Shown one piece after another: positions 1 to 34,298 of a stretch of 64,000 nucleotides of DNA. Position numbers and translations under genes: made by a program. The stretch comes from Patescibacteria group bacterium (lineage in GTDB: Bacteria; Patescibacteriota; Minisyncoccia; Phycocordibacterales; Phycocordibacteraceae), in the NCBI GenBank assembly GCA_029260935.1, contig JAJDCJ010000008.1:3905-67904 (forward strand). The letters run 5' to 3'. The notes beneath the pieces are model-generated. The model did not search any database and was not told the origin of the DNA. It saw only the letters and a program-made list of their open reading frames with translations. Position 1 is the first letter of the stretch. Every line of letters starts with the position of its first letter.

Positions 1-2
1 CT

Positions 3-3000
3 GGAGGAAACGATTGGGATATTGTTGCGGGATTACCTGGAGCAAATAATACCAACTTCAGCATTTACGATGTTACTGATGCTGCAACTCGTTTGACTAT
101 AGACACTACTGGCAACGTCGGCATTGGCACTACCAGCCCCGGCACGCTCTTTGCCCTTGGCGACACCGGCGCAAACACCATCAACATTTCCCCAACTGCC
201 ACCTCTACGTTCGGAAGCGGTCTCAACATCCGCACTGGCTGTTTTGCGGTAAATGGAACCTGTGTTGGCGGTGGGGGAGGTAGTGGCACCCCAGGGGGCA
301 CAGACGGACAGGTGCAGTACAACAATGGCAGTGCCTTCGGCGGCGCGTCTGCACTTTTCTATGACGACATAAACAATCTCGTTGGCATTGGTACGACGAG
401 TCCTGGATATAAACTTGAAGTGTATGGCACTGGAACCACAGGTGGCATTTTGATTGACGATAGTAGCACCTCGTCTGCCGCTCCACTACTCGAGGTAAAA
501 GGACGACGTTCGGACGCGAATGTTTCGCAATCATTTTCTGCAGGACTGGCACTGGCAGGTTTACGCACTGACGCAACAGTCGGTAGCGCCAAACATCTCG
601 GAACAGTTTATTTCGGCGGTAACCACACCGATGGTGCCGATACAAATCTTCTCTATAGCGCCTCAATTTCCGGTATTTCTGAAGGGACTTTCAGTAACGG
701 AACAACAATGCCAACAGGGCTCGCGTTTTACACTGGCTCAACCGGCACGGCGCTCGGCACCGCAAACCAAACTTTTGGCACAGAACGTCTCCGTATTACT
801 AACGCCGGCAACGTCGGCATCGGGACGACGAGTCCATTGGATACGTTTGATGTTGCAGGAAACATTGGTCTTACCGGTGCGGTAACGCGCCAGATACTAT
901 TGCGTGGTGGAGCAGCGAGTTCTGTGCTTTCTATTGATTTTCCTGAAACGACAGCAACAGAGACAAACCAATTCCGATTGTTTCGTAGCACCACCCAAGC
1001 CGCCGCTTCTGCTCTCCAAATTTACAAAGGTGACAATACCACAAGTGTTCAGACAAACCTCTCTTCATTTGGAAACTCGTACATCAATGCATTAGCAGGC
1101 AACGTCGGCATCGGGACAACAAGTCCGGCAAATAGTTCAAAACTTGGCGTTGAGGGCAGTTTATATTTCACTCAAGGGTTTAAGTACCACGACACAGGAG
1201 TTGTTTCAGCAAGTATCGGCTCTGCGGCTTCAACGGATATCGGGCTTACATTTGACCACCCTACAACTGATTGGAACATTGGTATTGATAACAGTGATAG
1301 TCAGGCATTCAAAATTGCAAATGGTGCCATTGGGGTTGCCGATAAAGTAACTATCACCACCTCCGGCAACGTCGGCATCGGGACAACAAGTCCGTATAAA
1401 AAGCTCTCGGTTGATGGCGATGGAGTGTTTGCGTCTACCGGACCGGTTGAGCTTATACTCCATGCAGATACAGACAATGTTACGGAAACTGACAACCCGC
1501 GCATTATATTCAAACAAGACGGTACGGCTGTTGTTGGTCGGGTCGGGTACAAATCCGGCACAAACTCTTTGGAAATAATAAATGAATTTACTGACAAGCT
1601 TAGTTTAGGAACAAACAATGTCGACCGCCTTACCATAGACTCCGCCGGCAACGTCGGCATCGGTGATACAACTCCTGGAGTTACATTGGATGTAGAAGGA
1701 AATATACGTTCTCAAGGATCACTAGCAGGTCTTATATTCAACGATAGGTCGGCAGGCGCTGCATGGCAGTGGTATGCCTCAGGTGGTACCGCTAGGTTGT
1801 ACAACGGGTCCGATAAGTTTGCTATCGATTCCTCAGGCAACGTCGGGGTCGGCAATACAGCGCCTAATGCTCTTTTGCATATCGGAGCGAATATCAGCAG
1901 TGAGTTAGGTGTATTGGTAGCAAACCAGCAGACAGCACTCGCCACCACGCTCAATGCCAACCAGCCCGTGGCAACATTTTCAGCCGGTAACACCTTGAAT
2001 GATTTCAAAAATACGCTCTATGTTGTTCGGGATACTGCGGCGGGAACAGATTGGACAACGACCAGGTGGCACGATGCAATAAATGTAGACAACTCCTTCC
2101 TTACGCCGAGGACCGACACAAAAGTATGGTGGGAACGCGACCCGAACAACAACATCCAATCATGGGGCAATGCGGCAAGCACCTACCTCACCATCAACGC
2201 AGGCAAAGTCGGGATTGGCACGGTAAGTCCTTCACAAGCACTCATGGTGTCTGGCATCGCATACGCAACTAGTGGGTTTCGCGGTCCGAGTAATGTGACT
2301 GGTGCAACAGTTAGTGATGTCGTCGCATCAGGTTGTGATTTTGAAGGAAGCATGATAACCAGTGGTGGTATTGTTACTACATTCACCTCTGCTTCCAGCT
2401 GTGCAAGCGGGTTTTCAGACGAGCGACTGAAAACAAACATCACGTCGACAGAAGACGGGTACGGCCTTGATGAAATTCTCCAGTTGCAACCGATAACGTA
2501 CAACTGGCTTGGTTCCAGCTTTAGCACAACAACACAGCTCGGGTTTATTGCCCAGGACATTGAGTTAGTGTTCCCTGAACTTATAACGGATTTCGGTACA
2601 ACCACTATTACGCTTCCTGACGGCGCAACCACTACAATTTCACACACGCTCGGGTTGAAGTATGGTGTGTTGACCGTGCCATTAGTGAAAGCAGTACAGG
2701 AACTGTACGCGATGATGGTTGACGTGAAAGAGCAGGTGCTCGCGCTCGTTGACCGCGTTACTGGTGTTGAAAGCAGGGTGGCGAGCTTGGAAGCCGAGAA
2801 CGCACAGCTTACCGCGCGCCTCTCTTTGATCGAATCCGCCCTCGCTTCCGGTACTCTCACTCCAAATATCTTGACGTCCGACGTCAAGATATCGGACGCT
2901 GACACCGAAGCTCCCGTCATTACCATGAACGGCAACAACCCAGCAACCATTGCAGTGGGCGACACCTACGCCGACCTCGGCGCAAGCGTCACCGACAACA

Positions 3001-3401
3001 TTGATCAAAACATCGGCATCCACACCTTTATTAATGACGGGGAAGTGACCACCGTGACGCTCGACACCAGCACCTCTACCACCTACACCATTACCTACCG
3101 CGCCACCGACCAAGCAGGGAACATTGGAGAGGCAACCCGCACCGTGGTTGTTGGTAGAGAAGAAGCACCACTTCCTGAGACAGTCACAGAACCCACCGCA
3201 ACCACGACACCGTCTATCGTAGAGGAAGCGTCAGCACCCACCACACCACCTGTAGTTGTAGAAACGAGTGAAGAAACACCACATGCGTCATCCACACCTG
3301 AGGCACTACCTGCCCCTGTAACTGCCGTTGAAACACCACCTGTTGTAGAGGAAGAGTCAGCACCCACGACACCGCCTTTGGGGGAGGAAGCAGTTAATTA
3401 G
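3..3401 (+). CDS. Giant repeat-containing surface/tail-fibre-like protein, 5'-partial. The reading frame is open from window position 3; the track shows a TTG at 93. It carries about 9 GNVGIGTTSP repeats, then an S74 intramolecular chaperone autoprocessing domain (SDERLKTNI...YNW...GFIAQDIELVFPEL), a coiled coil, an Ig-like (DUF5011-like) module and a Pro/Thr-rich tail.
   Basis: Long ORF with no stop back to the window start in the same frame. Periodic 'xRLTIDxxGNVGIGTTSP' repeats. The motif S-D-E-R-L-K-T-N-I followed by 'LQPITYNW' and 'GFIAQDIELVFPELI' matches the Peptidase_S74/CIMCD consensus from memory. The C-terminal 'APVITMNGNNPATIAVGDTYADLGASVTD' resembles bacterial Ig-like DUF5011. 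Confidence 0.8.
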   Translation, partial: GGNDWDIVAGLPGANNTNFSIYDVTDAATRLTIDTTGNVGIGTTSPGTLFALGDTGANTINISPTATSTFGSGLNIRTGCFAVNGTCVGGGGGSGTPGGTDGQVQYNNGSAFGGASALFYDDINNLVGIGTTSPGYKLEVYGTGTTGGILIDDSSTSSAAPLLEVKGRRSDANVSQSFSAGLALAGLRTDATVGSAKHLGTVYFGGNHTDGADTNLLYSASISGISEGTFSNGTTMPTGLAFYTGSTGTALGTANQTFGTERLRITNAGNVGIGTTSPLDTFDVAGNIGLTGAVTRQILLRGGAASSVLSIDFPETTATETNQFRLFRSTTQAAASALQIYKGDNTTSVQTNLSSFGNSYINALAGNVGIGTTSPANSSKLGVEGSLYFTQGFKYHDTGVVSASIGSAASTDIGLTFDHPTTDWNIGIDNSDSQAFKIANGAIGVADKVTITTSGNVGIGTTSPYKKLSVDGDGVFASTGPVELILHADTDNVTETDNPRIIFKQDGTAVVGRVGYKSGTNSLEIINEFTDKLSLGTNNVDRLTIDSAGNVGIGDTTPGVTLDVEGNIRSQGSLAGLIFNDRSAGAAWQWYASGGTARLYNGSDKFAIDSSGNVGVGNTAPNALLHIGANISSELGVLVANQQTALATTLNANQPVATFSAGNTLNDFKNTLYVVRDTAAGTDWTTTRWHDAINVDNSFLTPRTDTKVWWERDPNNNIQSWGNAASTYLTINAGKVGIGTVSPSQALMVSGIAYATSGFRGPSNVTGATVSDVVASGCDFEGSMITSGGIVTTFTSASSCASGFSDERLKTNITSTEDGYGLDEILQLQPITYNWLGSSFSTTTQLGFIAQDIELVFPELITDFGTTTITLPDGATTTISHTLGLKYGVLTVPLVKAVQELYAMMVDVKEQVLALVDRVTGVESRVASLEAENAQLTARLSLIESALASGTLTPNILTSDVKISDADTEAPVITMNGNNPATIAVGDTYADLGASVTDNIDQNIGIHTFINDGEVTTVTLDTSTSTTYTITYRATDQAGNIGEATRTVVVGREEAPLPETVTEPTATTTPSIVEEASAPTTPPVVVETSEETPHASSTPEALPAPVTAVETPPVVEEESAPTTPPLGEEAVN
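2865..2891. repeat. REP-A palindromic element (atatcttGACGTCCGACGTCaagatat), in-frame inside ORF1 (encodes ...NILTSDVKISD...)
   Basis: Perfect 27-nt palindrome sharing the 13-nt core GACGTC-S-GACGTC with at least 7 other copies in the window. Confidence 0.8.
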
Positions 3402-3821
3402 CATACAGAACCTGCAGAAAAAACACTGAAAGGTATCAACTAAGAAATCCTCAACGAAAAAACTGTGGAAAACAATTGGGTGTTTAATGATCCTTATTCT
3501 ATCCATTGGTAGATTAAAAATAGTTACTAAAAAACATAAAAACCACTTCGTTTGTTTTTTAGTTGCTCTTTTTAAATTATCTCGGCAAGACGAGATATGT
3601 TTATTCTATTAGGTGTGTCGGTAATATTTTTCTAATAAACTACAGCACCAATGTTTTTTACTTCAGGTGGACAGTGTGCTAATTAGCTTACTCCCAGTAG
3701 GTTTTTTTGAAACTATCAGACTACATTAACTGAAATGAAGTGGAAAAAAGGCAGATAAGACTTTTTAAAAAACCACAAACCTCCGACAAACCTAGTTAAA
3801 ATAAGGGTATGTCGGAGGTTT

Positions 3822-6800
3822 ATGGATTATATATCTGAAAAAAATAAAGAACTAAAAAATGAAGGCACCGACGTTCTTGTCTCATCGTCTGACGCTGCAA
3901 AAGTGCTCGGGTGCACACCAGACCATATTGCCAGACTTTGCCGGAAAGGAGAGTTGCGGTGTGTTCGTATTGAAAAACGATGGAAAGTATACAGAGCTTC
4001 CTTAGATCACTACTCATTATTTGCTCAAGAGCGAGCTGAAGAACTCCAAAGAAAACTTTCTGAAGAAAGAAAACAAGAATACCAACAAAAGAATGGACAT
4101 AGAAAACACAGCACATATCGTCCGACATCACCTTCTTTTTCTTCACATCCATACCATACCAACAAAATTTATTTTATTAGTTTATACACAGTGTTTGTTT
4201 TTACAGCGCTTCCTCTTTCTTTGCTCGCCGCGCAAATTTTTAACTATGAAAGAATAAAAGAATTAGTGCAGGGGAACCCTGCACCACTTTTTGAAGAAAT
4301 AAAAACAGTTACTCACTCGGTACAACAAACTATTGCTTCAGCTACTCGCGCACCACTTGGAAGCGGACAGTATGATTCCTCTTCATATGTTGCACTCGCA
4401 CTCCAACCACAAGCACTATTCAGTGCATTCAGTGATTGGTTGTGGGGCGAACCACAACTATATACACCGCCTGCGCTTGGTGTACCGCGCCGGCAAGAAA
4501 CATCAAATAACACTACGACCAGCATTGAAAGAACCCCCACCACCGTCATCCGCAACGTCACCGAACAGGTCACGGTAACTGGTGTCAGCAACGACACACT
4601 CATCACCAGACTGCAGGAACTTGAAAACAAACTTCGCTCTGAGATTCTGGTGTACTCTGCTCGTTCAGACCGCGGGAGCTCTGGAAACTATCGTGCCATT
4701 TCTCTCACCAATGCCATTCATCAGCTCACCAACACCACTATTACAACCCCAACTGTTTCAGGTGGTTCTTTCACTGACGGATCTTTTTCAGGCACATTCA
4801 GCGGACCTATCTCAGGAGGAACAGGAAGCTTCTCAACACTCACTGCATCAGGTGCAACGACACTTGACTCAACCTTGAGCGCCGCAACCACTACCCTTTC
4901 AGGCGCACTCACGGTTTCCGGTACCGCAACATCCTCTATCGCCGGACAGTTAGGACTTTCGTTTGCCCCAACTGAAGCCCACACGTTTGGCGCATGGGCA
5001 ACGGGTGTGGCAAGCAGTAGTGCGGCAAACGCCTCCCTCTACATCAACCCAAGCACCGCCACCGCAGACAGCAACCTCTTCGGTGTGGCAGTGAATGGCG
5101 CAGTCAAGTTTCTTGTTGATGCCGAGGGTGACATATTCGCAAACTCACTTACCGCATCCGGCGGCGTCACTCTCGCAACCACCACGGCTTCCACCTTTAC
5201 CGTGGAAGGCGACACCACTCTTGGCGATGCTGCCACCGACAATCTCACCATCACCGCCCGTCTCATCTCCGACCTCATTCCCAAGACGGCAAATACGTAC
5301 GACCTCGGTACCACCACCCTCGGCTTCCGCAGTGGTTTCTTCAACACCTCGCTTCTCATTGGCAACACCGCAACCACAACCATTCGTGGTGACCAAGCGA
5401 CCTCAACCTTTGCAAGCGGTATTGAAGCATCTAGGCAAATCACCGCGCCATTCTTTCAGGCAACGAGTACCTCCGCCACCTCAACCTTTGCGGGTGATGT
5501 CACCGTCTCTGGAAAAACCACCCTCGGCACTGCCTCCACTACACAAATCAGTGCCACATACGCCTCATCAACAAATGCATTCTTTGGTTCACTCTCGGTT
5601 GGCTCTCTCACCGGATTCCTCAAAGCAACCGCGGGATCAGTCGCCACCTCACTCATTGACCTGACGTCTGACGTCTCTGGTATACTCGGCACCACCTTCG
5701 GCGGCACCGGCTGGGGCACCATCACCGCAAACACACTCCTTGTGGGAAACGGCACTAACAAATTGGCGACCACCACTGCCGGCACCAACGGACAGGTACT
5801 CGCACTCGTTGGGGGCACGCCAAGCTGGGTGGCAACCACCACGTTCTCAAGCGGGCTCACATACACGGGAGGGAATGTGACAGCGGACCTCGGCACCAGC
5901 GTTGACTTAACGAGTGAAGTCACGGGAACACTCCCGGTGAGCAATGGCGGAACGGGGGCGACGACGTTTACCAACAATCGCCTTCTCACAGGTAACAGCA
6001 CCAGCGCACTCGTTGACGAAGCAAACCTCACCTTTGACGGTTCACTTCTTACTGTTACAGGCAACGCATCCACCACCCAACTTGGCTCAACAGGTTCTTC
6101 ATACTTTGCAACGAGCGGCGGCAACGTCGGTATTGGCACCACAACGCCAAATGCAAAATTGGCCATAAATACCGGTGTTTCCGGACAGCTCGTGCTGTGG
6201 AAGGGTTCGGGTGCACAATCCGGTATCGCATCAGGGCAGGTTGGTGGAGCAAATACGCTGGAATTTACTACAGATGACGCCGCCGGTGGTCAGGCAACGA
6301 GGTTATTACTGAGAGGGACCACCGCCGATGCCGATACTGAATTTTATAGAGGGGCACGAGGTGCGGAAATTCTTACTTTGTTTATAGAGGGGTCAAACGG
6401 GAATGTCGGTATTGGCAGTACCACTCCATTTGCAACGCTTGCAGTCAATCCTATTGCCGGCGACACCAACCAGTTTGTGGTGGGGAGTTCAACCGCAACC
6501 AGTTTTATTATTAACAGTGCCGGCAACGTGGGAGTTGGAGTGACAGACCCGGACAAGACACTTGAAGTGTTTGAAACGGTTGCCGATAGTCAGCTGAAAC
6601 TCTCCTACGACGCCACGCGCTACACCACCTTCCAAGTTACTTCCGTGGGCGACCTGGTGATAGACGCGCAGGGAGGCGATGCGTCGCTTTTGGATGAAAA
6701 CCTCTTTGTGTGTGCCGGCGGTTCCTGCCCTGCCGGCACACCAACGGGCACAGGAAACTTTATAGTTGAGCGTGGTATCGGTGTGGCGTCAGCCACACCG

Positions 6801-7157
6801 ATAACCGGTATTTCGGTGGGTGCCGACAGTGCCATTGTAACGACTGAAAAAAATGTTGCCGACGCCGCTCCTATTACCATTGACTGGGACAACGGCAACC
6901 AACAGCTCATCCGCCTTGCGGCAAGCCGCACCGTGAACTTCTCTAACGTTAAAGCGGGGCAGACACTCCGCTTAACGGTGTGCACGACAGCAAGTTCCCG
7001 ATTGGTCACCTGGGGTTCTACTATTCGCTGGTCGGGTGGCACGGCGCCCACGCAAACGGCAACCGCCAACAAGTGCGATGTGTTCTCGTTCCTTGGTACC
7101 CTTGGTCACACGGGAAGTGCAGTGCTAATTTTCGGCGCGTCAACGCTTAATTTTTAG
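3822..7157 (+). CDS. Giant Thr/Ser/Gly-rich surface protein with an N-terminal HTH (excisionase/HTH_17-like) domain and one TM helix, then about 1000 aa of repetitive extracellular sequence including GNVGIGTTTP-type repeats
   Basis: 1111-aa ORF. The N-terminus 'AAKVLGCTPDHIARLCRKGELRCVRIEKRWKVY' is HTH_17-like. A hydrophobic segment 'IYFISLYTVFVFTALPLSLLAAQIF' follows. Low-complexity T/S/G/A repeats and 'SGGNVGIGTTTPNAKLAIN', 'NGNVGIGSTTPFATLAVN' and 'AGNVGVGVTDPDKTLEV' motifs are shared with ORF1. Confidence 0.75.
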   Translation: MDYISEKNKELKNEGTDVLVSSSDAAKVLGCTPDHIARLCRKGELRCVRIEKRWKVYRASLDHYSLFAQERAEELQRKLSEERKQEYQQKNGHRKHSTYRPTSPSFSSHPYHTNKIYFISLYTVFVFTALPLSLLAAQIFNYERIKELVQGNPAPLFEEIKTVTHSVQQTIASATRAPLGSGQYDSSSYVALALQPQALFSAFSDWLWGEPQLYTPPALGVPRRQETSNNTTTSIERTPTTVIRNVTEQVTVTGVSNDTLITRLQELENKLRSEILVYSARSDRGSSGNYRAISLTNAIHQLTNTTITTPTVSGGSFTDGSFSGTFSGPISGGTGSFSTLTASGATTLDSTLSAATTTLSGALTVSGTATSSIAGQLGLSFAPTEAHTFGAWATGVASSSAANASLYINPSTATADSNLFGVAVNGAVKFLVDAEGDIFANSLTASGGVTLATTTASTFTVEGDTTLGDAATDNLTITARLISDLIPKTANTYDLGTTTLGFRSGFFNTSLLIGNTATTTIRGDQATSTFASGIEASRQITAPFFQATSTSATSTFAGDVTVSGKTTLGTASTTQISATYASSTNAFFGSLSVGSLTGFLKATAGSVATSLIDLTSDVSGILGTTFGGTGWGTITANTLLVGNGTNKLATTTAGTNGQVLALVGGTPSWVATTTFSSGLTYTGGNVTADLGTSVDLTSEVTGTLPVSNGGTGATTFTNNRLLTGNSTSALVDEANLTFDGSLLTVTGNASTTQLGSTGSSYFATSGGNVGIGTTTPNAKLAINTGVSGQLVLWKGSGAQSGIASGQVGGANTLEFTTDDAAGGQATRLLLRGTTADADTEFYRGARGAEILTLFIEGSNGNVGIGSTTPFATLAVNPIAGDTNQFVVGSSTATSFIINSAGNVGVGVTDPDKTLEVFETVADSQLKLSYDATRYTTFQVTSVGDLVIDAQGGDASLLDENLFVCAGGSCPAGTPTGTGNFIVERGIGVASATPITGISVGADSAIVTTEKNVADAAPITIDWDNGNQQLIRLAASRTVNFSNVKAGQTLRLTVCTTASSRLVTWGSTIRWSGGTAPTQTATANKCDVFSFLGTLGHTGSAVLIFGASTLNF

Positions 7158-7209: not shown

Positions 7210-7569
7210 ATGTCAGACACCTATAAACACCTCACCGTTTGGAAAGATTCTGTAACTTTCGCAACTGAAATATATTCAGCTACACGGGAATTTCCACAAA
7301 GCGAGCTTTTTGGACTGACCTCGCAACTGCGGCGTGCAGCCGTTTCAGTTGCTGCAAACCTTGCAGAAGGAGCCGGGAGGAATTCCAAGAAGGATTTTGC
7401 ACGTTTTGTAGATATCGCACTCGGTTCGTTAAATGAAGTGGAAACCCTGCTAAAAATTGCAGAAAACATCGGTTACTTGTCGTCCTCGGTCTATAGTGGG
7501 CTTTTTGATTCAACGCAATCAATCGGGAAGGCTCTTGGTGGTCTTCGTAAATATCTTAAGCACACATAA
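7210..7569 (+). CDS. Four-helix-bundle protein of the 23S rRNA intervening-sequence / Avd-like family
   Basis: 119 aa. 'WKDSVTFATEIYSATREFPQSELFGLTSQLRRAAVSVAANLAEG...FVDIALGSLNEVETLL' matches the TIGR02436/PF05635 pattern from memory. Confidence 0.75.
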   Translation: MSDTYKHLTVWKDSVTFATEIYSATREFPQSELFGLTSQLRRAAVSVAANLAEGAGRNSKKDFARFVDIALGSLNEVETLLKIAENIGYLSSSVYSGLFDSTQSIGKALGGLRKYLKHT

Positions 7570-7573
7570 TTTT

Positions 7574-8761
7574 ATGCCTAAACCACATTCCACATTCCAC
7601 ATTCCGTACTCTCTTCTCCTCATACTCTCCATTCCTCTTTTCTTTGTTGGAGCCGAATTCGCGTGGCAGTGGTACCACGCGAATTCGGCGGGGAACGACC
7701 CACTCCTAAAAGAGCGCATGGTGGTTTCCAGTGAAATTATTGGTAGTGAAGTGCGTTATACATATCTGGGGGAGAAACTACCCGAACTCCTTGTTGAAGG
7801 AGAGGTCGTGCGCTTACGCACAGAAACTTCGTTCAGCAGGGAGGTACACCGCACGAAAGAAGAGGTAACGCGCGAACAGGTTTCCTACCCGCGCCAAGCG
7901 TTCGCCCGCGACGTGCTTGGCGCGTGGTATTACGCGGAACACGCCACCACCACGCGCGAAGCATTTTTGAAAAAAAGCGCTTTCAGATACACCACCACTC
8001 TAGCTAAGTCAGTGTTCTTCTCTGTTGCCTATGCAGTAACCGACACCGTTTTTTCGCACGCCGGTGACGGATATATATCCGGCCTCGGCTTACAGTTTGG
8101 CACGGGGCCTATTAAACAGGCGGCGGCGTGGGGTGCAGCGCATAGTGCGACCAGTGGTGTTGTGAAATCCACTGCCACCACCTTATCAGCTCTTTCTCAA
8201 ATTTCCGATGACCTGGACGTCGTTCAGGCAGATATTGACAGGGTATTCGTTCCGTTTAACACCTCAACAATTTCTTCTTCGGCAGTTATTAGCTCAGCGT
8301 CCTTAAACCTCTATGTTGTTTCAAAGAACAATCAAGATAATGATGGCACTGATTTTGTTACCGTTATTCGGACTGACAACGCCGACTACACCACACTCGT
8401 CAGCGCCGACTACAACAATGCGGGGGCCACATCCAACCCTACTGAAGGCGTTGATACCGGGCAGAGGAAAGACATCACTTCTATTACTACGGGTGCGTAC
8501 TTGGTGTTTACACTGAATACAACGGGAATAGGGTGGATTGCCTTAAGTGGGCAGGCAAGCAACTGTTCCACCGCAACCGGCATTAGCTGTTTTGGGGTGC
8601 GTGAAGGACATGATGTGATTAATAGCCAGGTAGTTGAGAATACCACCAGCTCCGTCACCTTCAGTAGTGCGGAAGCAACTGGCACGTCCCAAGATCCGTT
8701 TCTTTCCGTGACCTACACCGTGCCAAACTTATTCGCGCCGTGGATGTTTGAGCCGTTTTAA
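7574..8761 (+). CDS. Hypothetical secreted/membrane-anchored protein. The track ORF starts at 7457; the likely start is the ATG at 7574, after the upstream gene's stop.
   Basis: Long ORF with an N-terminal hydrophobic segment 'YSLLLILSIPLFFVGA'. No recognisable catalytic motifs. Confidence 0.5.
   Translation: MPKPHSTFHIPYSLLLILSIPLFFVGAEFAWQWYHANSAGNDPLLKERMVVSSEIIGSEVRYTYLGEKLPELLVEGEVVRLRTETSFSREVHRTKEEVTREQVSYPRQAFARDVLGAWYYAEHATTTREAFLKKSAFRYTTTLAKSVFFSVAYAVTDTVFSHAGDGYISGLGLQFGTGPIKQAAAWGAAHSATSGVVKSTATTLSALSQISDDLDVVQADIDRVFVPFNTSTISSSAVISSASLNLYVVSKNNQDNDGTDFVTVIRTDNADYTTLVSADYNNAGATSNPTEGVDTGQRKDITSITTGAYLVFTLNTTGIGWIALSGQASNCSTATGISCFGVREGHDVINSQVVENTTSSVTFSSAEATGTSQDPFLSVTYTVPNLFAPWMFEPF
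7652..7689. repeat. Perfect 15-bp inverted repeat (GCCGAATTCGCGTGG / CCACGCGAATTCGGC) with an 8-nt loop, inside the CDS
   Basis: Seen directly in the sequence. In-frame, encoding 'AEFAWQWYHANSA'. Confidence 0.7.
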
Positions 8762-8887: not shown

Positions 8888-10090
8888 ATGCTCAAAAAAT
8901 TCGCCTCATTCTTTCTCTACAACAACCTTGTGCCGATTATCTTCGGGGTTCTCTTTCTTGGCGCAGGCGCAACATTTGCCGCCTCACCCGAAGCGCGCGA
9001 CGTGGTGTTTAGCGCGCAGGCGGTGGTAGCTTCGGTTGATAATGCATACATCATTTCCGCTGACATCGACGCCTATCCGTTTGACATTCAAATTACAGAC
9101 ATTGCCGAAAGTGACACACACTATTTCATCACCTACACACTGGCAACTATTGATCTTGCAGAAGGGGTATGGCGCGACGTAGTAAAGGCGCGCACGCTTG
9201 AAGTTGAAAAAGCGGTGTTGGCGGGGCGCGACTTGGGTGTGTATGCGGCGCGCCAGCTTTCCGAAACAAGAGATGCCGAACATGCGCGCCTCGTAGAAAC
9301 GCAGAAGATAGAAAAGGACCTAGGCAAGCAACAAAAAATAGTGGCAACGGTGTACGGCGGATTGGTAGGGAGGATGCTTGAACCCAGCGAGGAGGTGTTT
9401 ACAGGATACACACCGGTTGTTTCAGAACCAATTCCTACAGGGGTGGTTGCAGGTGATGGTGGGGGGAGTACAGGTGCGGGCACTGCAGTACCCGCACCTG
9501 ACCCGCGCGCCGCGGAAGCGGCGCGCCTTGCCGCGCTTGAAGCACGCATTTCTTCGCTTGAATCCGCCCTCGCTTCCGGCAGCACCTCTGCCACCCCCAC
9601 TGATGGACGTCGGACGTCCATCAGTGGGGGTGGGGACACCGAAGCTCCCGTCATTACCGTGAACGGCAATAACCCAGCGACCATCAATGTGGGCGACACC
9701 TACGCCGACCTCGGCGCAAGCGTCACCGACAACATTGATCAAAACATCGGCATCCACACCTTTGTTGACGGCAACGAAGTAACTACCGTAGCTTTGGATA
9801 CCAGCACCTCAACCACATACACTATTGTATATAAAGCAACTGACACTTCAGGAAATGTGGGAGAGGCAACACGCACCGTCGTTGTGGGAGGAGCTCAACC
9901 AGGAGCGGAACCACCAACCGTGGTACCTGAAACGCCACCGGCTTCACCTACTGCAACTTCAACACCCGCAACCCCTCCTCCTGAACCTGCCGCAACGTCC
10001 ACCCCTCCGACGAGCCCTCTTCCAGCTGTAGAAACAACTCCACCACCACCCGCAACCATAACCGGCACCACCACGCCAGAATCAATCTAA
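8888..10090 (+). CDS. Secreted protein with a signal peptide, a coiled coil, an Ig-like (DUF5011-like) module and a Pro/Thr-rich tail. The C-terminal cassette is near-identical to that of ORF1.
   Basis: 400 aa. N-terminal hydrophobic 'LVPIIFGVLFLGAGATFA'. The segment 'SLESALASG...DTEAPVITVNGNNPATINVGDTYADLGASVTDNIDQNIGIHTF...EATRTVVVG' shares roughly 90% nucleotide identity with 2830-3160. Confidence 0.75.
   Translation: MLKKFASFFLYNNLVPIIFGVLFLGAGATFAASPEARDVVFSAQAVVASVDNAYIISADIDAYPFDIQITDIAESDTHYFITYTLATIDLAEGVWRDVVKARTLEVEKAVLAGRDLGVYAARQLSETRDAEHARLVETQKIEKDLGKQQKIVATVYGGLVGRMLEPSEEVFTGYTPVVSEPIPTGVVAGDGGGSTGAGTAVPAPDPRAAEAARLAALEARISSLESALASGSTSATPTDGRRTSISGGGDTEAPVITVNGNNPATINVGDTYADLGASVTDNIDQNIGIHTFVDGNEVTTVALDTSTSTTYTIVYKATDTSGNVGEATRTVVVGGAQPGAEPPTVVPETPPASPTATSTPATPPPEPAATSTPPTSPLPAVETTPPPPATITGTTTPESI
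9595..9629. repeat. REP-A palindromic element (ccccactgatgGACGTCGGACGTCcatcagtgggg), in-frame inside CDS 8888-10090
   Basis: Perfect 35-nt palindrome. Same core as the other REP-A copies. Confidence 0.8.
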
Positions 10091-10104
10091 CCAAACTCCT
10101 CCCA

Positions 10105-10129
10105 TTTGCGGACGTCGGACGTCCGCAAA
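10105..10129. repeat. REP-A palindromic element (tttgcgGACGTCGGACGTCcgcaaa)
   Basis: Perfect palindrome. Intergenic, 3' of RAYT1. Confidence 0.8.
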
Positions 10130-10159
10130 CCTCGCATTTCCGCCCTTCTTCACCCCTCA

Positions 10160-10215: not shown

Positions 10216-10899
10216 TTATTCTAAAGTAACTCCCGCAACCTCATCAACACTAAACTCTTTTAATGTCTTTGAAACTGATTTTTTATACCCTCCTTCACCA
10301 CCAAAAAACTCAAGAAAAAACTTTCGGTCAGTTACCAACGGAAAGTTTTTCTCTCCTAAATAATCAAGGTGACTGCTCCAGCGATACGTGTTCAGAAAAT
10401 CCAACGCCTTTTTCGGGTGTGCGATGCACTGTTTTCGCCATTCCGGCACTTTTAAATCAAGCGGATTAAAGTGAATGTAGTAGGGGATATAAAGGAAGTG
10501 CGCATCACGCTCAATCAGCACCTTCTTATATTTGCCTTGCCACAATGCCCCACTCCGGTCATATTTCTCATTAAAATACTTTGAGTAGCCCCCATTGAGT
10601 TTTTTCATAAAAAGCGAAATACCATTTTCTACAACCGGCGATAACAGCAGGTGATAGTGGTTCGGCATCAAACAGAAAAAATGCACCTGCACCAACCTCT
10701 CCCGGCTCCTCTCATGATAAGTCTGCGGACGTCGGACGTCCGCAGACGGCTCTGTTGCGCGCCGTAATTGATAATAGGGAAGTACATTGCGGGTATCATT
10801 GAATTCATATATATCGTGAATGAACCGCAAATAATCTCTCTCATCAAGAAAAGTAGTGCGTTTATCAACACCTCTGTTGAGTACATGAAAGAAATCCAT
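10216..10899 (-). CDS. REP-associated tyrosine transposase (RAYT; IS200/IS605 TnpA-like HuH Y1 transposase). The track ORF extends to 10995 by reading through the 5' REP; the likely start is the ATG at 10899.
   Basis: HuH motif 'LMPNHYHLLLSP'. C-terminal Y...Q region 'YSKYFNEKYDRSGALWQGKY'. Length about 228 aa. Flanked by palindromes. Confidence 0.8.
   Translation of the reverse strand: MDFFHVLNRGVDKRTTFLDERDYLRFIHDIYEFNDTRNVLPYYQLRRATEPSADVRRPQTYHERSRERLVQVHFFCLMPNHYHLLLSPVVENGISLFMKKLNGGYSKYFNEKYDRSGALWQGKYKKVLIERDAHFLYIPYYIHFNPLDLKVPEWRKQCIAHPKKALDFLNTYRWSSHLDYLGEKNFPLVTDRKFFLEFFGGEGGYKKSVSKTLKEFSVDEVAGVTLE
10721..10747. repeat. REP-A palindromic element (gtctgcgGACGTCGGACGTCcgcagac) inserted in-frame inside the RAYT1 coding sequence (encodes ..PSADVRRPQT..)
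   Basis: 27-nt perfect palindrome. Its length is a multiple of 3 and the ORF continues through it. Confidence 0.8.
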
Positions 10900-10925
10900 A
10901 CGGCAAGTATATCTCTCTCTTACAG

Positions 10926-10952
10926 ATCTGCGGACGTCGGACGTCCGCAGAT
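10926..10952. repeat. REP-A palindromic element (atctgcgGACGTCGGACGTCcgcagat), 5' of RAYT1
   Basis: Perfect palindrome. Confidence 0.8.
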
Positions 10953-10994
10953 GGGGATAGTAAATAATAAAGGCAGGCAGGAGAGGGAATTTCA

Positions 10995-12047
10995 ATGCGT
11001 TACAATAAAGGTATGAAAAAGATTAACGTTGCCATAAATGGCTTAGGCAGAATTGGGCGTGCGTTTGTGCGCGCCACACAAAAAAGTGACGCGATTAACA
11101 TTGTCGCTATTAATGATTTATCAGACACGGAAAACCTTGCCTACTTACTACGGCGTGACACGGTATATGGCATGGCGCCTTTTGAGGTGTCGCATACAGA
11201 AAACACACTTCTCATTGCGGGAAAAGAAATTCCTGTGTATGCAGAAAAAGATCCAGCTCAATTGCCGTGGAAACAGCATGATGTTGATGTTGTGGTTGAG
11301 GCAACAGGAAAGTTTACAAAATATGCTACCTCAAAAGCGCACCTTACCGCAGGGGCAAAACGAGTGGTTATCACCGCTCCGGTTAAAGACACTCCGGAAG
11401 ACGCCGGCGTCATTGGTGCAACAGTTTTGATGGGTATAAATCACCACGAACTTAAAACGTGTGATATCAGTTCCAACGCTTCGTGCACTACAAACGCAGG
11501 TGGTCCACTCATTGCGGTTTTAGATGAGGGAATTGGTATTGAAAAGGCACTCCTTAATACTATTCATGGATACACGTCGTCGCAGTCACTGGTTGATGGT
11601 CCATCATCGCGAAAAAATGATCCACGCCGTGGACGAGCTGCCGCACAAAACATTGTGCCTTCAACCACGGGCGCGGCGACTGCAACCACGAAAGCTCTCA
11701 CTCAACTTGATGGACTCTTTGATGGCGTTGCCGTCCGTGTACCTGTGCCTGTCGGCTCACTCATTGACATTACATTTGTTGCCAAACGCGAAACGTCGGT
11801 TGAAGAAGTCAACGCCATTCTCACTAAAGCATCAAAAGACAAACGGTGGGAAGGTATCTTTACCGCAACTGACGAGCCATTAGTTTCAAGTGATATCATC
11901 GGAAACATACACGCTTCTATTGCAGACCTCTCCTACACGCGTGTGGTGGGTGGTACCTTAGTAAAAGTGTTTGCGTGGTACGACAACGAAACAGGATACA
12001 CTAATGCACTTCTTAAGCAGGTGATTGAAACAGGGGGGTATGTCTAA
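10995..12047 (+). CDS. gap: Glyceraldehyde-3-phosphate dehydrogenase (an alternative start ATG at 11013 gives MKKINVAINGLGRIGR)
   Basis: 'INGLGRIGR' NAD-binding motif. Active site 'SNASCTTN'. 'WYDNETGY' C-terminal motif. Confidence 0.9.
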   Translation: MRYNKGMKKINVAINGLGRIGRAFVRATQKSDAINIVAINDLSDTENLAYLLRRDTVYGMAPFEVSHTENTLLIAGKEIPVYAEKDPAQLPWKQHDVDVVVEATGKFTKYATSKAHLTAGAKRVVITAPVKDTPEDAGVIGATVLMGINHHELKTCDISSNASCTTNAGGPLIAVLDEGIGIEKALLNTIHGYTSSQSLVDGPSSRKNDPRRGRAAAQNIVPSTTGAATATTKALTQLDGLFDGVAVRVPVPVGSLIDITFVAKRETSVEEVNAILTKASKDKRWEGIFTATDEPLVSSDIIGNIHASIADLSYTRVVGGTLVKVFAWYDNETGYTNALLKQVIETGGYV

Positions 12048-33800: not shown

Positions 33801-34298
33801 GTTGATGGTGCTCATATCCGTACGCTTCTGCTCACACTCTTTTACCGATACTTTAAAGAAATGATTGAAGGTGGATTTGTATACATTGCGCAACCTCCTC
33901 TATACAAAATTAAAAAAGGGAAAGATGTGACGTACGCGTATACTGATGATGAAAAAGCAGATCTTATCGGCACAGACATTGAAATTACAGAAGAAAACGA
34001 CGACACTGTTTTAGATGAAGATGAGGACGAAAACGATAGAGAAGAAGATGTACAGTCAAAGAAATCAAAACCGAAAACAAAAAAAGTCACGATTCAACGG
34101 TACAAAGGTCTTGGTGAAATGAACCCAGACGAGCTGTGGGAAACCACCATGGACCCAGCACGGCGGATTTTAAAACAAGTAACTATTGAGGACGCACAAG
34201 ACGCCGACCGTGTATTTGATATTTTAATGGGTACCGACGTTCCCGCTCGTAAATCGTTTATTCAAAGTAACGCCAAAACTGCAAAACTAGACATTTAG
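30888..34298 (+). CDS. gyrB: DNA gyrase subunit B, interrupted by a 433-aa intein
   Basis: GHKL ATPase N-terminus, TOPRIM 'EGDSAGG|C...' interrupted by the intein, C-terminal 'QRYKGLGEMNP'. Total 1136 aa versus about 650-700 for a typical GyrB. Confidence 0.9.
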   Translation: MPKKTPTKAVKPNKTATKAKKGPSYGAEQITVLEGLEPVRKRPGMYIGTTGPDGLHHLIWEVFDNSRDEAMGGFADTIEVALLPGNKIRIVDNGRGIPVDIHKQTKVSALETIMTTLHAGGKFGGDESGYKVSGGLHGVGVSVVNALSVYTKVEVHKDGGHYIQEYSRGKPKAKVKKIGSTNFEGTVVVFEADQEIFKEIVFDWNKIVAHLRQQAYLVKGTRIGIYDAREYAGKTDLEDGVYIRDMEVAIPSQTFYFEQGLRSLVAFNNRFQKPIHKNIFYVEKEEDGVTVEVALQYADDISPRLIGFANNIYNSEGGTHITGFKTALTRTINTYARKNNVVKESDENFTGDDVLEGITAVVSVKMPEVQFEGQTKGKLGSVEARGAVETVFGEAFSDFLETHPDEAKSIASKTLLALKARKAAKAAKDSVLRKGALDGMTLPGKLADCQSKSAEESELFIVEGDSAGGCFDGNTKVALTDGRNLTFKELVVEDKDGKQNYCYTIDDGDVGVAPILNPRITKHNAEVLKVTLDSGEEIICTPDHRFMLRDQSYQQAQQLTSEDSLMPLRRQLSRLGRRITIKGYELVYTPGAHQWIFTHLLGDRFNMKHNIYTKTDNTAVHHKDFNKLNNNPDNLVRLDKQEHILLHTQSLHRTLHSEASKEAARRTHKTREYREKIRTIMSTSRMRTLLSLRAKKQWENLEYKEFMKQKFSEFYNTHPEYRTENNANLNAAQKLHWSKAENRKAQSKRVTEFFVQNPEVRSALCAEARTQWDNADLRAWRAETTKKQWTSEFRANRKVAYNKTYLTKALKAFNDIWKKTKNIDVAAYNRIRKETNDRSLIRHDTILKRFFNNDTKRFEEAVVNFNHRIKHIEKVHERMDVYDLQVAGTHNFALASGIFVHNSSKQGRDRRTQAILPLRGKILNVERARLDRMLASNEIKALVVALGTAIGDLFNLEKLRYHKVIIATDADVDGAHIRTLLLTLFYRYFKEMIEGGFVYIAQPPLYKIKKGKDVTYAYTDDEKADLIGTDIEITEENDDTVLDEDEDENDREEDVQSKKSKPKTKKVTIQRYKGLGEMNPDELWETTMDPARRILKQVTIEDAQDADRVFDILMGTDVPARKSFIQSNAKTAKLDI
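32295..33593 (+). mobile_element. GyrB intein with an HNH-type homing endonuclease domain, inserted in the TOPRIM EGDSAGG^S site
   Basis: Block A 'CFDGNTKVAL' directly after GDSAGG. Block B 'ICTPDHRF'. HNH-like 'HHKDFNKLNNNPDNLVRLDKQEHILLH'. Blocks F/G 'VYDLQVAGTHNFALASGIFVHN' followed by +1 Ser and the resumed extein 'SKQGRDRRTQAILPLRGKILNV'. Confidence 0.85.

What the first reader, a model, noticed from the sequence alone, without database searches (positions are those of the whole stretch)
3822..4260. Excisionase-type HTH domain fused via a single TM helix to a 1000-aa extracellular repeat protein
The first 60 aa or so of the ORF at 3822-7157 look like an HTH_17/MerR-excisionase DNA-binding domain. 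A hydrophobic helix follows at aa 116-140, then a huge Thr/Ser/Gly-rich repeat region. This would be a membrane-tethered DNA-binding protein with a giant extracellular part, which is odd topologically. It could be a membrane-anchored regulator sensing the surface, or a mis-called start.
Basis: inference. Interest (0 to 1): 0.55.

Follow-up and report, generated by a model that had tools for sequence, protein, structure and literature searches.

The report
Membrane-anchored DNA-binding head on surface fibre
The gene is real: a small DNA-binding domain inside the cell is joined by one membrane helix to a phage-tail-fibre-like surface fibre, and it belongs to a large, conserved, apparently undescribed family in the ultrasmall Patescibacteria (CPR).

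Summary
ORF 3822-7157 (1111 aa) has a Pfam HTH_17 domain (aa 20-64, above the curated cut-off) and a single hydrophobic helix (aa 116-141). A Thr/Gly/Ser/Ala-rich ectodomain follows, whose C-terminal beta-sandwich matches phage tail-fibre tips. It is not a tandem-repeat protein.

The start is not mis-called, and the fusion is not an artefact. The same HTH-linker-TM head sits on 14 of 44 homologous giant proteins. A profile of the head finds 6605 protein clusters (E<=1e-10). Of the top 150, 140 have a predicted TM helix. Ectodomains range from about 45 to over 5300 aa. All named hits are Patescibacteria.

In related loci the canonical order is gatB, then a small 2xHTH-TM gene, then a giant HTH-TM gene (36/36 and 40/41 loci). 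These genes share conserved promoter motifs, and the window's upstream region aligns to them.

The topology is ordinary type II (N-in/C-out; positive-inside p=3e-21).

Function is inferred, not shown. It is most likely a membrane-tethered, sequence-specific DNA-binding head that regulates or tethers its own locus while anchoring a host-binding fibre.

I found no literature or curated family for this architecture.

The parts
3578..3597 (+). Palindrome TATCTCGGcaagaCGAGATA in the upstream intergenic region. It is also a weak terminator-like hairpin for the upstream gene.
   Evidence: One search lists it as terminator-like. One search shows it is the only CCGAGATA-type site in an intergenic part of the window. 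In related loci CCGAGAT is enriched 8.5-fold in the 120 nt upstream of HTH-TM genes, often as CCGAGATAcgTATCTCGG.
3772..3802 (+). Diverged copy of the family promoter: ACCACA (3772-3777), CCTCCGACAA (3780-3789), CCTAGTTAAAAT (3791-3802) with a -10-like TAAAAT at 3797-3802.
   Evidence: In alignment A4 it aligns to the consensus ATATCCACAGGATATCCGGAATAnCTAGTAAAAT found upstream of giant HTH-TM genes. The simple sigma-70 scan did not call a promoter here.
3777..3821 (+). Perfect 12-nt inverted repeat, AAACCTCCGACA (3777-3788) and TGTCGGAGGTTT (3810-3821). It flanks the -10-like box, contains the SD-like GGAGG (3814-3818) and abuts the ATG.
   Evidence: Both arms are exact, and the only other near match in the window has one mismatch, against 0.37 expected by chance. 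As RNA the region 3760-3840 folds at -28.4 kcal/mol, z = -5.97, with 0 of 200 shuffles as good. No Rfam family matches.
3822..7157 (+). Whole gene: HTH - linker - TM - fibre protein, 1111 aa. The stop codon is at 7155-7157.
   Evidence: The identical protein (P0001) is in the NCBI-derived collection, on an 81.7-kb contig.
3879..4013 (+). Excisionase/MerR-type winged HTH (aa 20-64), predicted cytoplasmic.
   Evidence: Pfam HTH_17 above its cut-off. AF2 fold and Foldseek matches.
4014..4166 (+). Charged post-HTH helix carrying the giant-type motif LSEERKQEY (aa 79-87), then a Ser/Pro/His-rich linker running up to the TM helix.
   Evidence: Helix aa 58-91 in the model. The motif is conserved in A1 and in the independent giant-type profile, consensus LAEERAEEY.
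4167..4244 (+). Single TM helix (aa 116-141), a signal-anchor.
   Evidence: Hydropathy. Family-wide positive-inside bias.
4494..4736 (+). Juxtamembrane 'neck' module (aa 225-305, includes LITRLQELENKLRSEI). It is also found in homologues that start with a plain signal peptide.
   Evidence: BLASTP coverage map.
4938..6011 (+). Thr/Gly/Ser-rich shaft built of mosaic modules (aa 373-480 and aa 567-730 are the best conserved).
   Evidence: Module aa 373-477 is 61-62% identical to P0020 and P0026. Module aa 567-712 is 63% identical to P0010.
6120..6776 (+). Distal shaft with three GNVG[IV]G(T/S)T(T/D)P motifs and a conserved Cys-x4-Cys knob (VCAGGSCP).
   Evidence: The same motif recurs six times in the upstream tail-fibre-like gene (repeat family D2).
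6843..7154 (+). C-terminal beta-sandwich tip (aa 1008-1111) with a phage tail-fibre tip fold.
   Evidence: In the AF2 model this part has pLDDT about 67-88. Foldseek against viral models gives 232 hits at E <= 1e-3, best 7e-12. Several align over about 105 residues at rmsd 2-3 A and carry names such as 'tail fiber protein' or 'phage tail fibre C-terminal domain'. The best PDB match is the phage Pa223 capsid spike at 1.2e-4.

Best explanation
This is a genuine single-pass, N-in/C-out surface protein of a Patescibacteria (CPR) bacterium.

How it is built:
- Translation starts at ATG 3822.
- The first about 115 residues stay in the cytoplasm. They comprise an excisionase/MerR-type winged HTH, a charged helix and a short linker.
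- Residues 116-141 act as an uncleaved signal-anchor.
- The remaining about 970 residues are exported by Sec. They form a phage-tail-fibre-like fibre whose exchangeable beta-sandwich tip binds a receptor on a partner or host cell.

The head is not an accident of this gene. It is the 'giant-type' version of a lineage-wide HTH(x1-3)-linker-TM module. The canonical arrangement is gatB, then a small 2xHTH-TM gene, then a giant HTH-TM-fibre gene.

The mechanism I commit to: the tethered HTH binds specific DNA at the membrane, namely the conserved motifs in the promoters of the HTH-TM genes themselves. In this gene the candidate site is the region 3772-3821, with its 12-nt inverted repeat around the -10 box. 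Fibre production would then be autoregulated by a membrane-bound factor, and the locus would be held at the membrane.

What is shown: the architecture, the topology statistics, the family, the synteny, the promoter conservation and the tip fold.

What is inferred: DNA binding, autoregulation, export route, fibre oligomerisation and host binding.
For: Architecture.

Recurrence of the fusion:
- 14 of 44 ectodomain homologues carry HTH-linker-TM. Most of the others start with a plain hydrophobic signal.
- 11 of 12 aligned heads hit HTH_17.

Family size and shape:
- The exhaustive profile search found 15077, 6605 and 438 clusters at E <= 1e-3, 1e-10 and 1e-30.
- In the top 150, 140 have a TM helix. 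The median length is 329 aa and the median tail after the TM helix is 48 aa, but tails reach 5321 aa.

Topology: K+R in the 15 aa before the TM helix averages 3.47, against 1.33 after it (n = 150, p = 3e-21).

Taxonomy: all hits that carry an organism name are Patescibacteria.

Synteny:
- gatB lies directly upstream of the small gene in 36/36 loci.
- A second, mostly giant, HTH ORF lies downstream in 40/41 loci.
- The same order holds in L001-L003 and L005-L008.

Membership of the window protein: the independent giant-type profile gives 66.7 bits, E = 1e-21, on aa 19-103.

Cis elements:
- The WATCCMCA box is enriched 23-fold, sits at a fixed distance and is present in 62/79 small-gene upstream regions and 47/57 giant-gene upstream regions.
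- The composite promoter pattern is almost exclusive to HTH-TM gene starts.
- The window's upstream region aligns to the giant-gene promoter.

DNA-binding signature: basic and aromatic residues are conserved over 323 domains (R41 98%, W54 96%, basic wing).

Tip fold.
Against: No experiment shows DNA binding for any member.

The window's HTH departs from the family consensus at five well-conserved positions (Y31C, Y35H, G37A, G51E, Y55K). It may therefore bind weakly or differently.

The window copy is not in the canonical context. It has no gatB and no small HTH-TM gene within 64 kb. Its box is degenerate (ACCACA, 3 mismatches to TTATCCACA).

The conserved box resembles a DnaA box, so another protein, not the HTH, may bind it.

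A test for covariation between box variant (CCACA or CCCCA) and recognition-helix residues found nothing convincing.

Most family members have only about 48 aa outside the membrane. The head's function therefore cannot in general depend on a large ectodomain.
Confidence: 0.5

Rival explanations
1. Nucleoid-membrane tether. The HTH heads mainly hold chromosomal DNA at the membrane, in the manner of RacA or of transertion. This would organise or segregate the nucleoid in an ultrasmall cell. The fibre simply uses the same anchor, and regulation is secondary or absent.
For: - Most members are small, with two tandem HTH domains, long acidic linkers and a tiny outside tail.
- The position next to the housekeeping gene gatB is near-universal.
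- RacA and the internally duplicated dsDNA binder TraN are among the closest solved relatives.
Against: Motifs that are specific, fixed in position and almost exclusive to the promoters of the HTH-TM genes point to sequence-specific control of these genes rather than generic tethering. No chromosome-wide site pattern was tested.
Confidence: 0.2
2. Contact sensor, in the ToxR/CadC manner. Engagement or tension of the fibre on a host cell is passed through the TM helix, or through oligomerisation, and changes DNA binding by the head. Attachment would then reprogramme transcription.
For: - The layout is the same as in ToxR-like receptors.
- The tip is of the receptor-binding type.
- The TM sequence is conserved in part of the family (FGTYALVDP), which suggests specific TM contacts.
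- The box also lies upstream of secA, a pilin gene and a Trp-repressor-like gene in some loci, hinting at a surface regulon.
Against: Nothing here tests signal transmission. The partner small proteins and most of the family lack a sensing-sized ectodomain. Homologous fibres work with plain signal peptides.
Confidence: 0.15
3. Non-DNA role. The HTH is a folded cytoplasmic plug or a protein-protein module, as the RodZ HTH is for MreB. It would fix type II orientation, cluster fibres or dock them to a cytoskeletal or secretion partner.
For: - The window's HTH has lost several consensus residues.
- The fibre homologues tolerate swapping the head for a signal peptide.
- RodZ is a precedent (my own knowledge).
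Against: The family keeps the basic recognition-helix and wing signature of DNA-binding HTH_17/Xis/BldC domains. A short positive tail would be enough for topology. No HTH_XRE/RodZ-type match was found.
Confidence: 0.12
4. Artefact. The start is mis-called, or an assembly or annotation error has fused a small excisionase gene to a tail-fibre gene. Alternatively, this is a prophage tail fibre with its excisionase.
For: HTH_17 domains are typical of excisionases. Tail-fibre-like genes flank the ORF. GC content is higher in 1-10 kb than in the rest of the window.
Against: - The same fusion occurs in many independent assemblies.
- There is no internal ATG and no stop codon.
- The TM helix lies between the two parts.
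- The promoter is conserved upstream of the HTH.
- No integrase or other phage genes lie nearby. The neighbours are surface proteins, a 23S-IVS protein, a Y1 transposase and GAPDH.
- The GC shift follows the Thr/Gly/Ala-rich composition.
Confidence: 0.02

Closest known systems
ToxR-like transmembrane transcription regulators (ToxR, CadC, TcpP, PsaE)
   Same: N-terminal cytoplasmic DNA-binding domain, one TM helix and a C-terminal domain outside the membrane. Input and output sit in one protein (PMC5430869).
   Different: Their DNA-binding domain is an OmpR/PhoB-type winged helix, not HTH_17/MerR-type. Their outside domain is a small sensor, not a roughly 1000-aa phage-fibre-like stalk. They are proteobacterial. 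Signalling is untested here.
RodZ (HTH_XRE - TM - periplasmic domain)
   Same: Same bitopic layout, with an N-terminal cytoplasmic HTH. It shows that the topology is ordinary (my own knowledge).
   Different: The RodZ HTH is XRE-type and binds MreB, not DNA. No XRE or DUF4115 match was found here.
Excisionase / BldC / MerR N-domain winged HTH (Pukovnik Xis 4j2n, RdfS 8dgl, BldC 6ama)
   Same: Same fold and the same Pfam family, HTH_17. These proteins bind DNA, often as head-to-tail multimers (my own knowledge).
   Different: They are small and soluble, with no TM helix. No integrase partner is present here. The MerR effector domain is absent.
RacA (B. subtilis chromosome anchor, 5i44) and TraN (pIP501 T4SS dsDNA-binding protein, 4p0y/6g1t)
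   Same: RacA has a MerR-like wHTH followed by a long helix, and it links DNA to the membrane-proximal pole. TraN has two tandem excisionase-like HTH domains, like the small 2xHTH partner, and is the best PDB sequence match (E = 0.013). Both are structural matches.
   Different: Both are soluble, and RacA reaches the membrane through DivIVA (my own knowledge). The matches are weak. No T4SS genes lie nearby.
Phage tail fibres and the 'tail fiber domain-containing' giant surface proteins of Patescibacteria
   Same: GNVGIGT motifs, a mosaic shaft and an exchangeable tip with a tail-fibre tip fold. The neighbouring gene 1-3401 has the Peptidase_S74 chaperone domain and tail-fibre PHROGs.
   Different: This protein is chromosomal and membrane-anchored, has no S74 domain, and carries a cytoplasmic DNA-binding head that no phage fibre has.

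Membership tests
Pfam HTH_17 (PF12728) | Score at or above the curated gathering cut-off (27 bits). | tested here: met
   32.8 bits on the full protein and 36.8 bits on aa 1-146, matching aa 20-64.
Pfam HTH_17 (PF12728) | Winged helix-turn-helix fold of the excisionase/MerR type. | tested here: met
   AF2 model with pLDDT 79 and strand-H-H-strand-strand order. The top Foldseek hits are Xis, RdfS, RacA, BldC and MerR-family proteins at rmsd 1.3-2 A, though E-values are only about 0.05.
TIGR01764 excisionase-family DNA-binding domain | Score at or above the curated cut-off (28.8 bits). | tested here: not met
   22.6 and 26.2 bits.
Excisionase (recombination directionality factor) | A small soluble protein encoded next to an integrase in a mobile element. 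| tested here: not met
   The protein is 1111 aa with a TM helix. The neighbours scanned (1-3401, 7210-7569, 7457-8761, 8888-10090, 10216-10995) include no integrase.
MerR-family regulators | A MerR/MerR_1 HTH profile plus a C-terminal effector-binding domain. | tested here: not met
   The window protein has no PF00376 or PF13411 hit. There is a long helix after the HTH but no effector domain. Two homologous giants, P0020 and P0026, do carry MerR-type heads.
ToxR-like transmembrane regulators | Cytoplasmic N-terminal DNA-binding domain, single TM helix and outside C-terminal domain. | tested here: met
   Topology is by prediction only.
ToxR-like transmembrane regulators | The DNA-binding domain is of the OmpR/PhoB (Trans_reg_C) type. 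| tested here: not met
   Only HTH_17 was found.
ToxR-like transmembrane regulators | The outside domain senses a signal that controls transcription. | not testable with these tools
   This needs genetics or biochemistry.
RodZ | XRE-type HTH (HTH_25) and a C-terminal DUF4115. | tested here: not met
   No such Pfam hits.
Phage tail fibre with S74 intramolecular chaperone | A C-terminal Peptidase_S74 domain. | tested here: not met
   Absent in 3822-7157. Present in the upstream gene and in the homologues P0025 and P0038.
Phage tail fibre (fold level) | A tip domain with the tail-fibre C-terminal beta-sandwich fold. | tested here: met
   232 viral models at E <= 1e-3, best 7e-12. The model is confident only for aa 1008-1111.
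Patescibacteria HTH-TM family, giant type (defined here) | An N-terminal head that matches a profile built from other giant-type heads, including the L-x-EER-x-EY helix. | tested here: met
   66.7 bits, E = 1e-21, aa 19-103. The window sequence was not in that profile.
Patescibacteria HTH-TM family, giant type (defined here) | A single TM helix 75-250 aa from the start, followed by a large ectodomain. | tested here: met
   TM helix at aa 116-141, then 970 aa. The same holds in 13 homologues.
Patescibacteria HTH-TM family, giant type (defined here) | The conserved promoter: box, TATCCGGAAT, CTAGTAAAAT. | tested here: inconclusive
   The window aligns to it and keeps CTAG-TAAAAT and TCCG, but the box is degenerate.
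Patescibacteria HTH-TM family, giant type (defined here) | Position downstream of gatB and a small HTH-TM gene. | tested here: not met
   The window has no gatB and no second HTH-TM ORF. The upstream gene runs off the window, so what lies beyond is unknown.

The most novel reading that the evidence does not exclude
The small 2xHTH-TM protein and the giant HTH-TM-fibre protein together form a minimal, Patescibacteria-wide transmembrane signalling system. A phage-like receptor-binding fibre reports contact with the host cell directly to a membrane-tethered DNA-binding head. The head then controls a surface regulon marked by the WATCCMCA/TATCCGGAAT promoter motifs: the fibre, its partner, and possibly secA and pilin genes.
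Probability: 0.15. Interest if true: 0.85.

Novelty: new variant of a known kind. Interest (0 to 1): 0.68.

Why it matters
Patescibacteria make up a large share of bacterial diversity. They live attached to other cells and have very few recognisable regulators. How they sense and hold their hosts is largely unknown.

This work found a nearly universal, syntenic gene pair: gatB, then a small 2xHTH-TM gene, then a giant HTH-TM-fibre gene. The pair has its own conserved promoter motifs. It joins a DNA-binding domain to a phage-like receptor-binding fibre through one membrane helix. That gives a concrete, testable candidate for coupling the cell surface to the chromosome in these organisms.

It also supplies a profile and cis-motifs with which thousands of 'hypothetical' or 'helix-turn-helix domain-containing' CPR proteins could be re-annotated.

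I found no curated Pfam or NCBIfam family beyond HTH_17. I found no paper describing the architecture in five full-text searches and two paper look-ups.

Tried and rejected
- Diversity-generating retroelement. The downstream gene 7210-7569 is a 23S-IVS/Avd-like four-helix protein. However, there is no template/variable-repeat pair and no reverse transcriptase nearby. Rejected.
- Signal-peptidase cleavage after the TM helix. This was prompted by an S26 gene lying between two giants in L005. There is no consistent AxA-type site across members. What is conserved in one clade is an FGTYALVDP motif at the end of the TM helix. Not supported.
- Covariation between box variant and recognition-helix residues. 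Nothing convincing was found. Inconclusive.
- Codon-usage frame test on 3822-4166. Frame 1 scores best, but only marginally. The housekeeping-trained model fails on the Thr/Gly-rich part. Uninformative.
- Rfam match for the upstream hairpin. Only sub-threshold generic hairpin hits.
- Word-indexed search with aa 1-300 alone. No hits. This was a sensitivity limit, later overcome with profiles.
- Searches that could not be run or gave little. The search for related loci with A1 failed because no stretch was conserved enough. P0001 is not on record for contig look-up. The afdb50 library was unavailable. PDB sequence search with the full protein found nothing.
- The genome-contig scan returned only one relative, L006, from an unnamed 'uncultured bacterium'. 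The window's exact taxon was therefore not established beyond its Patescibacteria relatives.
Full report
**Observation.** The window contains an ATG-started ORF at 3822-7157 (+) encoding 1111 aa.
- Pfam HTH_17 matches aa 20-64 above the curated cut-off: 32.8 bits on the whole protein and 36.8 bits on aa 1-146, against 27. The narrower TIGR01764 'excise' model falls just short at 22.6 and 26.2 bits against 28.8.
- An AlphaFold2 model of aa 1-93, built on 12 aligned heads, has mean pLDDT 79. It shows a strand, two helices and a two-stranded wing, then a long helix over aa 58-91.
- The nearest solved folds are Pukovnik Xis, RdfS, RacA, TraN, BldC and MerR-family N-domains. They align over about 50 residues at rmsd 1.3-2 A with probability near 1, but the E-values are weak, as expected for so small a domain.
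- Hydropathy gives one clear TM segment, aa 116-141.
- The region aa 301-800 is 21% Thr, 14% Gly, 13% Ser and 11% Ala.
- It is not a true repeat protein. BLASTP finds no internal self-match and TRF finds no tandem repeat in the DNA. Only three GNVG[IV]G motifs recur.

**Is the start right?** Yes, on four grounds.
- There is no in-frame ATG within the first 400 codons. The alternative GTG/TTG codons lie inside the HTH (codons 28 and 45) or inside or just after the TM helix (codons 124, 134 and 149).
- The fusion is recurrent. Of 44 homologues of the full protein, 14 begin with an HTH_17- or MerR-type domain, a charged linker and a TM helix at aa 74-175. Eleven of the 12 aligned HTH_17-type heads hit Pfam HTH_17 on their own.
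- A profile built only from 53 giant-type heads recovered from metagenomes, without the window sequence, matches aa 19-103. The score is 66.7 bits, E = 1e-21, and the match includes the post-HTH motif L-x-EER-x-EY.
- The DNA just upstream of 3822 aligns with the conserved promoter of these genes (see the promoter section below).

The mis-called-start and assembly-artefact readings can be set aside.

**Topology.** The segment before the TM helix is rich in Lys and Arg. Across 150 family members, the 15 residues before the TM helix hold 3.47 K+R on average, against 1.33 after it. The count before exceeds the count after in 123 members, and the reverse holds in 15 (Wilcoxon p = 3e-21). With no N-terminal signal peptide, this predicts an ordinary type II orientation: head inside, C-terminal part outside. 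The layout is known from ToxR/CadC-type receptors (PMC5430869, seen) and from RodZ (my own knowledge). So 'topologically odd' is not justified.

**The ectodomain.** It is a mosaic. Different stretches match different giant proteins in different orders: aa 225-574 is 77% identical to P0002, aa 373-477 is 61-62% identical to P0020 and P0026, aa 567-712 is 63% identical to P0010, and aa 852-1111 is 50% identical to the C-terminus of P0003.
- A conserved Cys-x4-Cys knob is followed in different proteins by different tips.
- The tip here (aa 1008-1111) is modelled as a beta-sandwich with pLDDT about 67-88.
- That tip matches 232 predicted viral structures at E <= 1e-3, best 7e-12. Several align over about 105 residues at rmsd 2-3 A and are named tail-fibre proteins or tail-fibre C-terminal domains. 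The best PDB match is a phage capsid spike.
- The gene upstream (1-3401) runs off the window. It carries Peptidase_S74, an Ig-like domain and tail-fibre PHROGs.

The exported part is therefore best read as a phage-fibre-like, receptor-binding surface fibre. That it forms trimers or binds a host cell is inference.

**The head defines a large family.** An exhaustive profile search with the 12 heads found 15077 cluster representatives at E <= 1e-3, 6605 at E <= 1e-10 and 438 at E <= 1e-30.
- Among the best 150, 140 have a predicted TM helix and 135 have exactly one.
- The median length is 329 aa. The TM helix starts near residue 242 and only about 48 residues follow it.
- Most have two tandem HTH domains. 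The same set also holds proteins of 1155, 1699, 1974, 4310 and 5533 aa.
- Every hit that carries an organism name is a Patescibacteria lineage (Parcubacteria, Yanofskybacteria, Azambacteria, Gribaldobacteria, Doudnabacteria, Uhrbacteria, Zambryskibacteria or 'Patescibacteria group'). They are annotated only as hypothetical, 'helix-turn-helix domain-containing' or 'excisionase family DNA binding protein'.
- Pfam and NCBIfam have nothing for the small proteins beyond HTH_17.
- Over 323 aligned domains the signature is GKxYISxKRAAxxxGYxQDYIGQLARxGKIxA(R/K)(R/K)VGxxWYV, with R41 at 98%, W54 at 96%, and D34 and Y35 at 93%. This is the basic recognition-helix and wing pattern of DNA-binding HTH_17 domains.
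- The window protein is a divergent member, with Y31C, Y35H, G37A, G51E and Y55K.

**Synteny.** In seven loci found through ectodomain homologues, gatB precedes the giant gene. In five of these a small HTH-TM gene lies between them.

A metagenome scan with the small-protein head returned 80 further loci.
- gatB lies directly upstream of the small gene in 36 of 36 loci with enough sequence.
- A second HTH-bearing ORF follows on the same strand in 40 of 41. Thirty-six of these run off the end of the locus, with up to 1678 aa already read.
- Where enough was read, these ORFs have a TM helix at a median of residue 174.

The canonical unit is thus gatB, a small 2xHTH-TM gene and a giant HTH-TM gene. 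The window copy is outside this context. It has no gatB and no second HTH-TM ORF in 64 kb. It may be a second copy, as in L005, where two giant HTH genes flank a signal-peptidase gene. The canonical genes could also lie beyond the window edge. Like the window, L008 has a 23S-IVS-protein gene right after the giant gene.

**Promoter motifs.** A box WATCCMCA, usually TAATCCACA and so one mismatch from the DnaA-box consensus TTATCCACA, lies upstream of the HTH-TM genes.
- It is present upstream of 62 of 79 small genes. It is always in gene orientation and sits at a fixed 60-65 nt, or 51-53 nt, from the ATG.
- Its density there is 6.75 per kb, against 0.29 per kb elsewhere in the loci.
- CCGAGAT is enriched 8.5-fold. 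It often forms the palindrome CCGAGATAcgTATCTCGG just before a (GG)TATACT box that sits 7-8 nt from the ATG.
- A composite pattern (box, spacer, -10, start codon) occurs 69 times in all loci. Fifty-nine of these are small-gene starts, and the remaining ten include further small- and giant-gene starts.
- Giant genes share the consensus ATATCCACAGGATATCCGGAATAnCTAGTAAAATnATAGnTAAnTCG. The box is present upstream of 47 of 57.

The window reads ACCACA-aa-CCTCCGACAA-a-CCTAGTTAAAAT-aa-GGGTATGTCGG and aligns to this consensus. This places a -10-like TAAAAT at 3797-3802.

Two further features stand out in the window.
- A perfect 12-nt inverted repeat (3777-3788 and 3810-3821) brackets that box, covers the GGAGG and abuts the ATG. 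As RNA it would fold at -28.4 kcal/mol, z = -6.
- A CCGAGATA-type palindrome lies at 3578-3597.

Motifs this specific to the genes of a DNA-binding protein family are the usual signature of autoregulation. I could not show which protein binds them. A covariation test was negative, and DnaA is an obvious alternative.

**Mechanism and rivals.** My best reading (about 0.5) is a membrane-tethered, sequence-specific DNA-binding head that controls and holds its own locus while anchoring a host-binding fibre. The rivals are:
- a mainly structural nucleoid-membrane tether (0.2), favoured by the tandem heads, the long linkers, the tiny outside tails and the housekeeping synteny;
- a ToxR-like contact sensor (0.15);
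- a non-DNA, RodZ-like or purely topogenic role (0.12);
- an artefact or prophage reading (0.02).

**Novelty.** The principle of a TM-tethered HTH is known. This head type, this ectodomain, the conserved partner gene, the synteny and the promoter motifs appear not to be described. Five full-text searches and two paper look-ups found nothing. I rate it a new variant of a known kind, of real interest for CPR biology.

Noticed in passing
Loci L001-L088, upstream of HTH-TM genes; window 58270: A DnaA-box-like motif (TTATCCACA/TAATCCACA, sometimes TTATCCCCACA) sits at a fixed distance upstream of nearly all small and giant HTH-TM genes. It also lies about 315-321 nt upstream of secA in L001 and L006, 59 nt upstream of a pilin gene (L004:655) and 82 nt upstream of a Trp-repressor-like gene (L002:3570). 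In the window, CTATCCACA lies 201 nt upstream of rpoB.
   Followed up: partly
L009-L088, 120 nt upstream of small HTH-TM genes; window 3578-3597: CCGAGAT words and the palindrome CCGAGATAcgTATCTCGG are enriched 8.5-fold just before the -10 box. The window has the related palindrome TATCTCGGcaagaCGAGATA upstream of the gene.
   Followed up: partly
Window, starts of many genes (e.g. 8888, 17775, 20789, 37117, 49412, 49958, 52378): Many genes have a TATAAT/TATACT-like box 7-12 nt before the ATG and no Shine-Dalgarno sequence. This suggests mostly leaderless or very short-leader mRNAs in this genome. The small HTH-TM genes in other loci show the same pattern.
   Followed up: no
Window 10101-10137, 10714-10760, 10924-10965, around ORF 10216-10995 (-): An IS200-like Y1 transposase gene is flanked by, and contains, three copies of a palindromic element (TGCGGACGTCGGACGTCCGCA), like a REP/RAYT pair. 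Y1_Tnp genes also sit beside the HTH-TM pair in L001 and L008.
   Followed up: no
Window 1-3401 (+) and 8888-10090 (+): The upstream gene runs off the window start. It is tail-fibre-like, with six GNVGIG motifs, Peptidase_S74 and an Ig-like domain. It shares a 259-nt stretch at 82% identity (2901-3159 and 9635-9893) with the Ig-like surface protein gene at 8888-10090.
   Followed up: partly
Window 7210-7569 (+): A 23S rRNA intervening-sequence protein (a four-helix bundle, weakly Avd-like) lies directly after the giant gene, as in L008. No DGR repeat or reverse transcriptase was seen.
   Followed up: partly
Window 30888-34298 (+): GyrB is interrupted by an intein (Intein_splicing, aa 478-902).
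   Followed up: no
L001 13478-20831; L003 8001-10532 and 10629-14651; P0010: Several giant fibre homologues or their neighbours carry Hint/intein-splicing domain hits (PF14890, PF01079). This suggests intein-like autoprocessing modules inside surface giants.
   Followed up: no
L005 909-12295: Two giant HTH-headed tail-fibre genes flank a signal peptidase I (S26) gene. A 79-aa MerR/HTH_17 gene lies on the opposite strand between gatB and the first giant.
   Followed up: partly
Proteins P0003, P0012, P0049, P0051, P0053, P0075, P0095: The TM helix itself is conserved in sequence in one clade (…FGTYALVDP…), in both small and giant proteins. This hints at specific TM-TM contacts rather than a passive anchor.
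   Followed up: no
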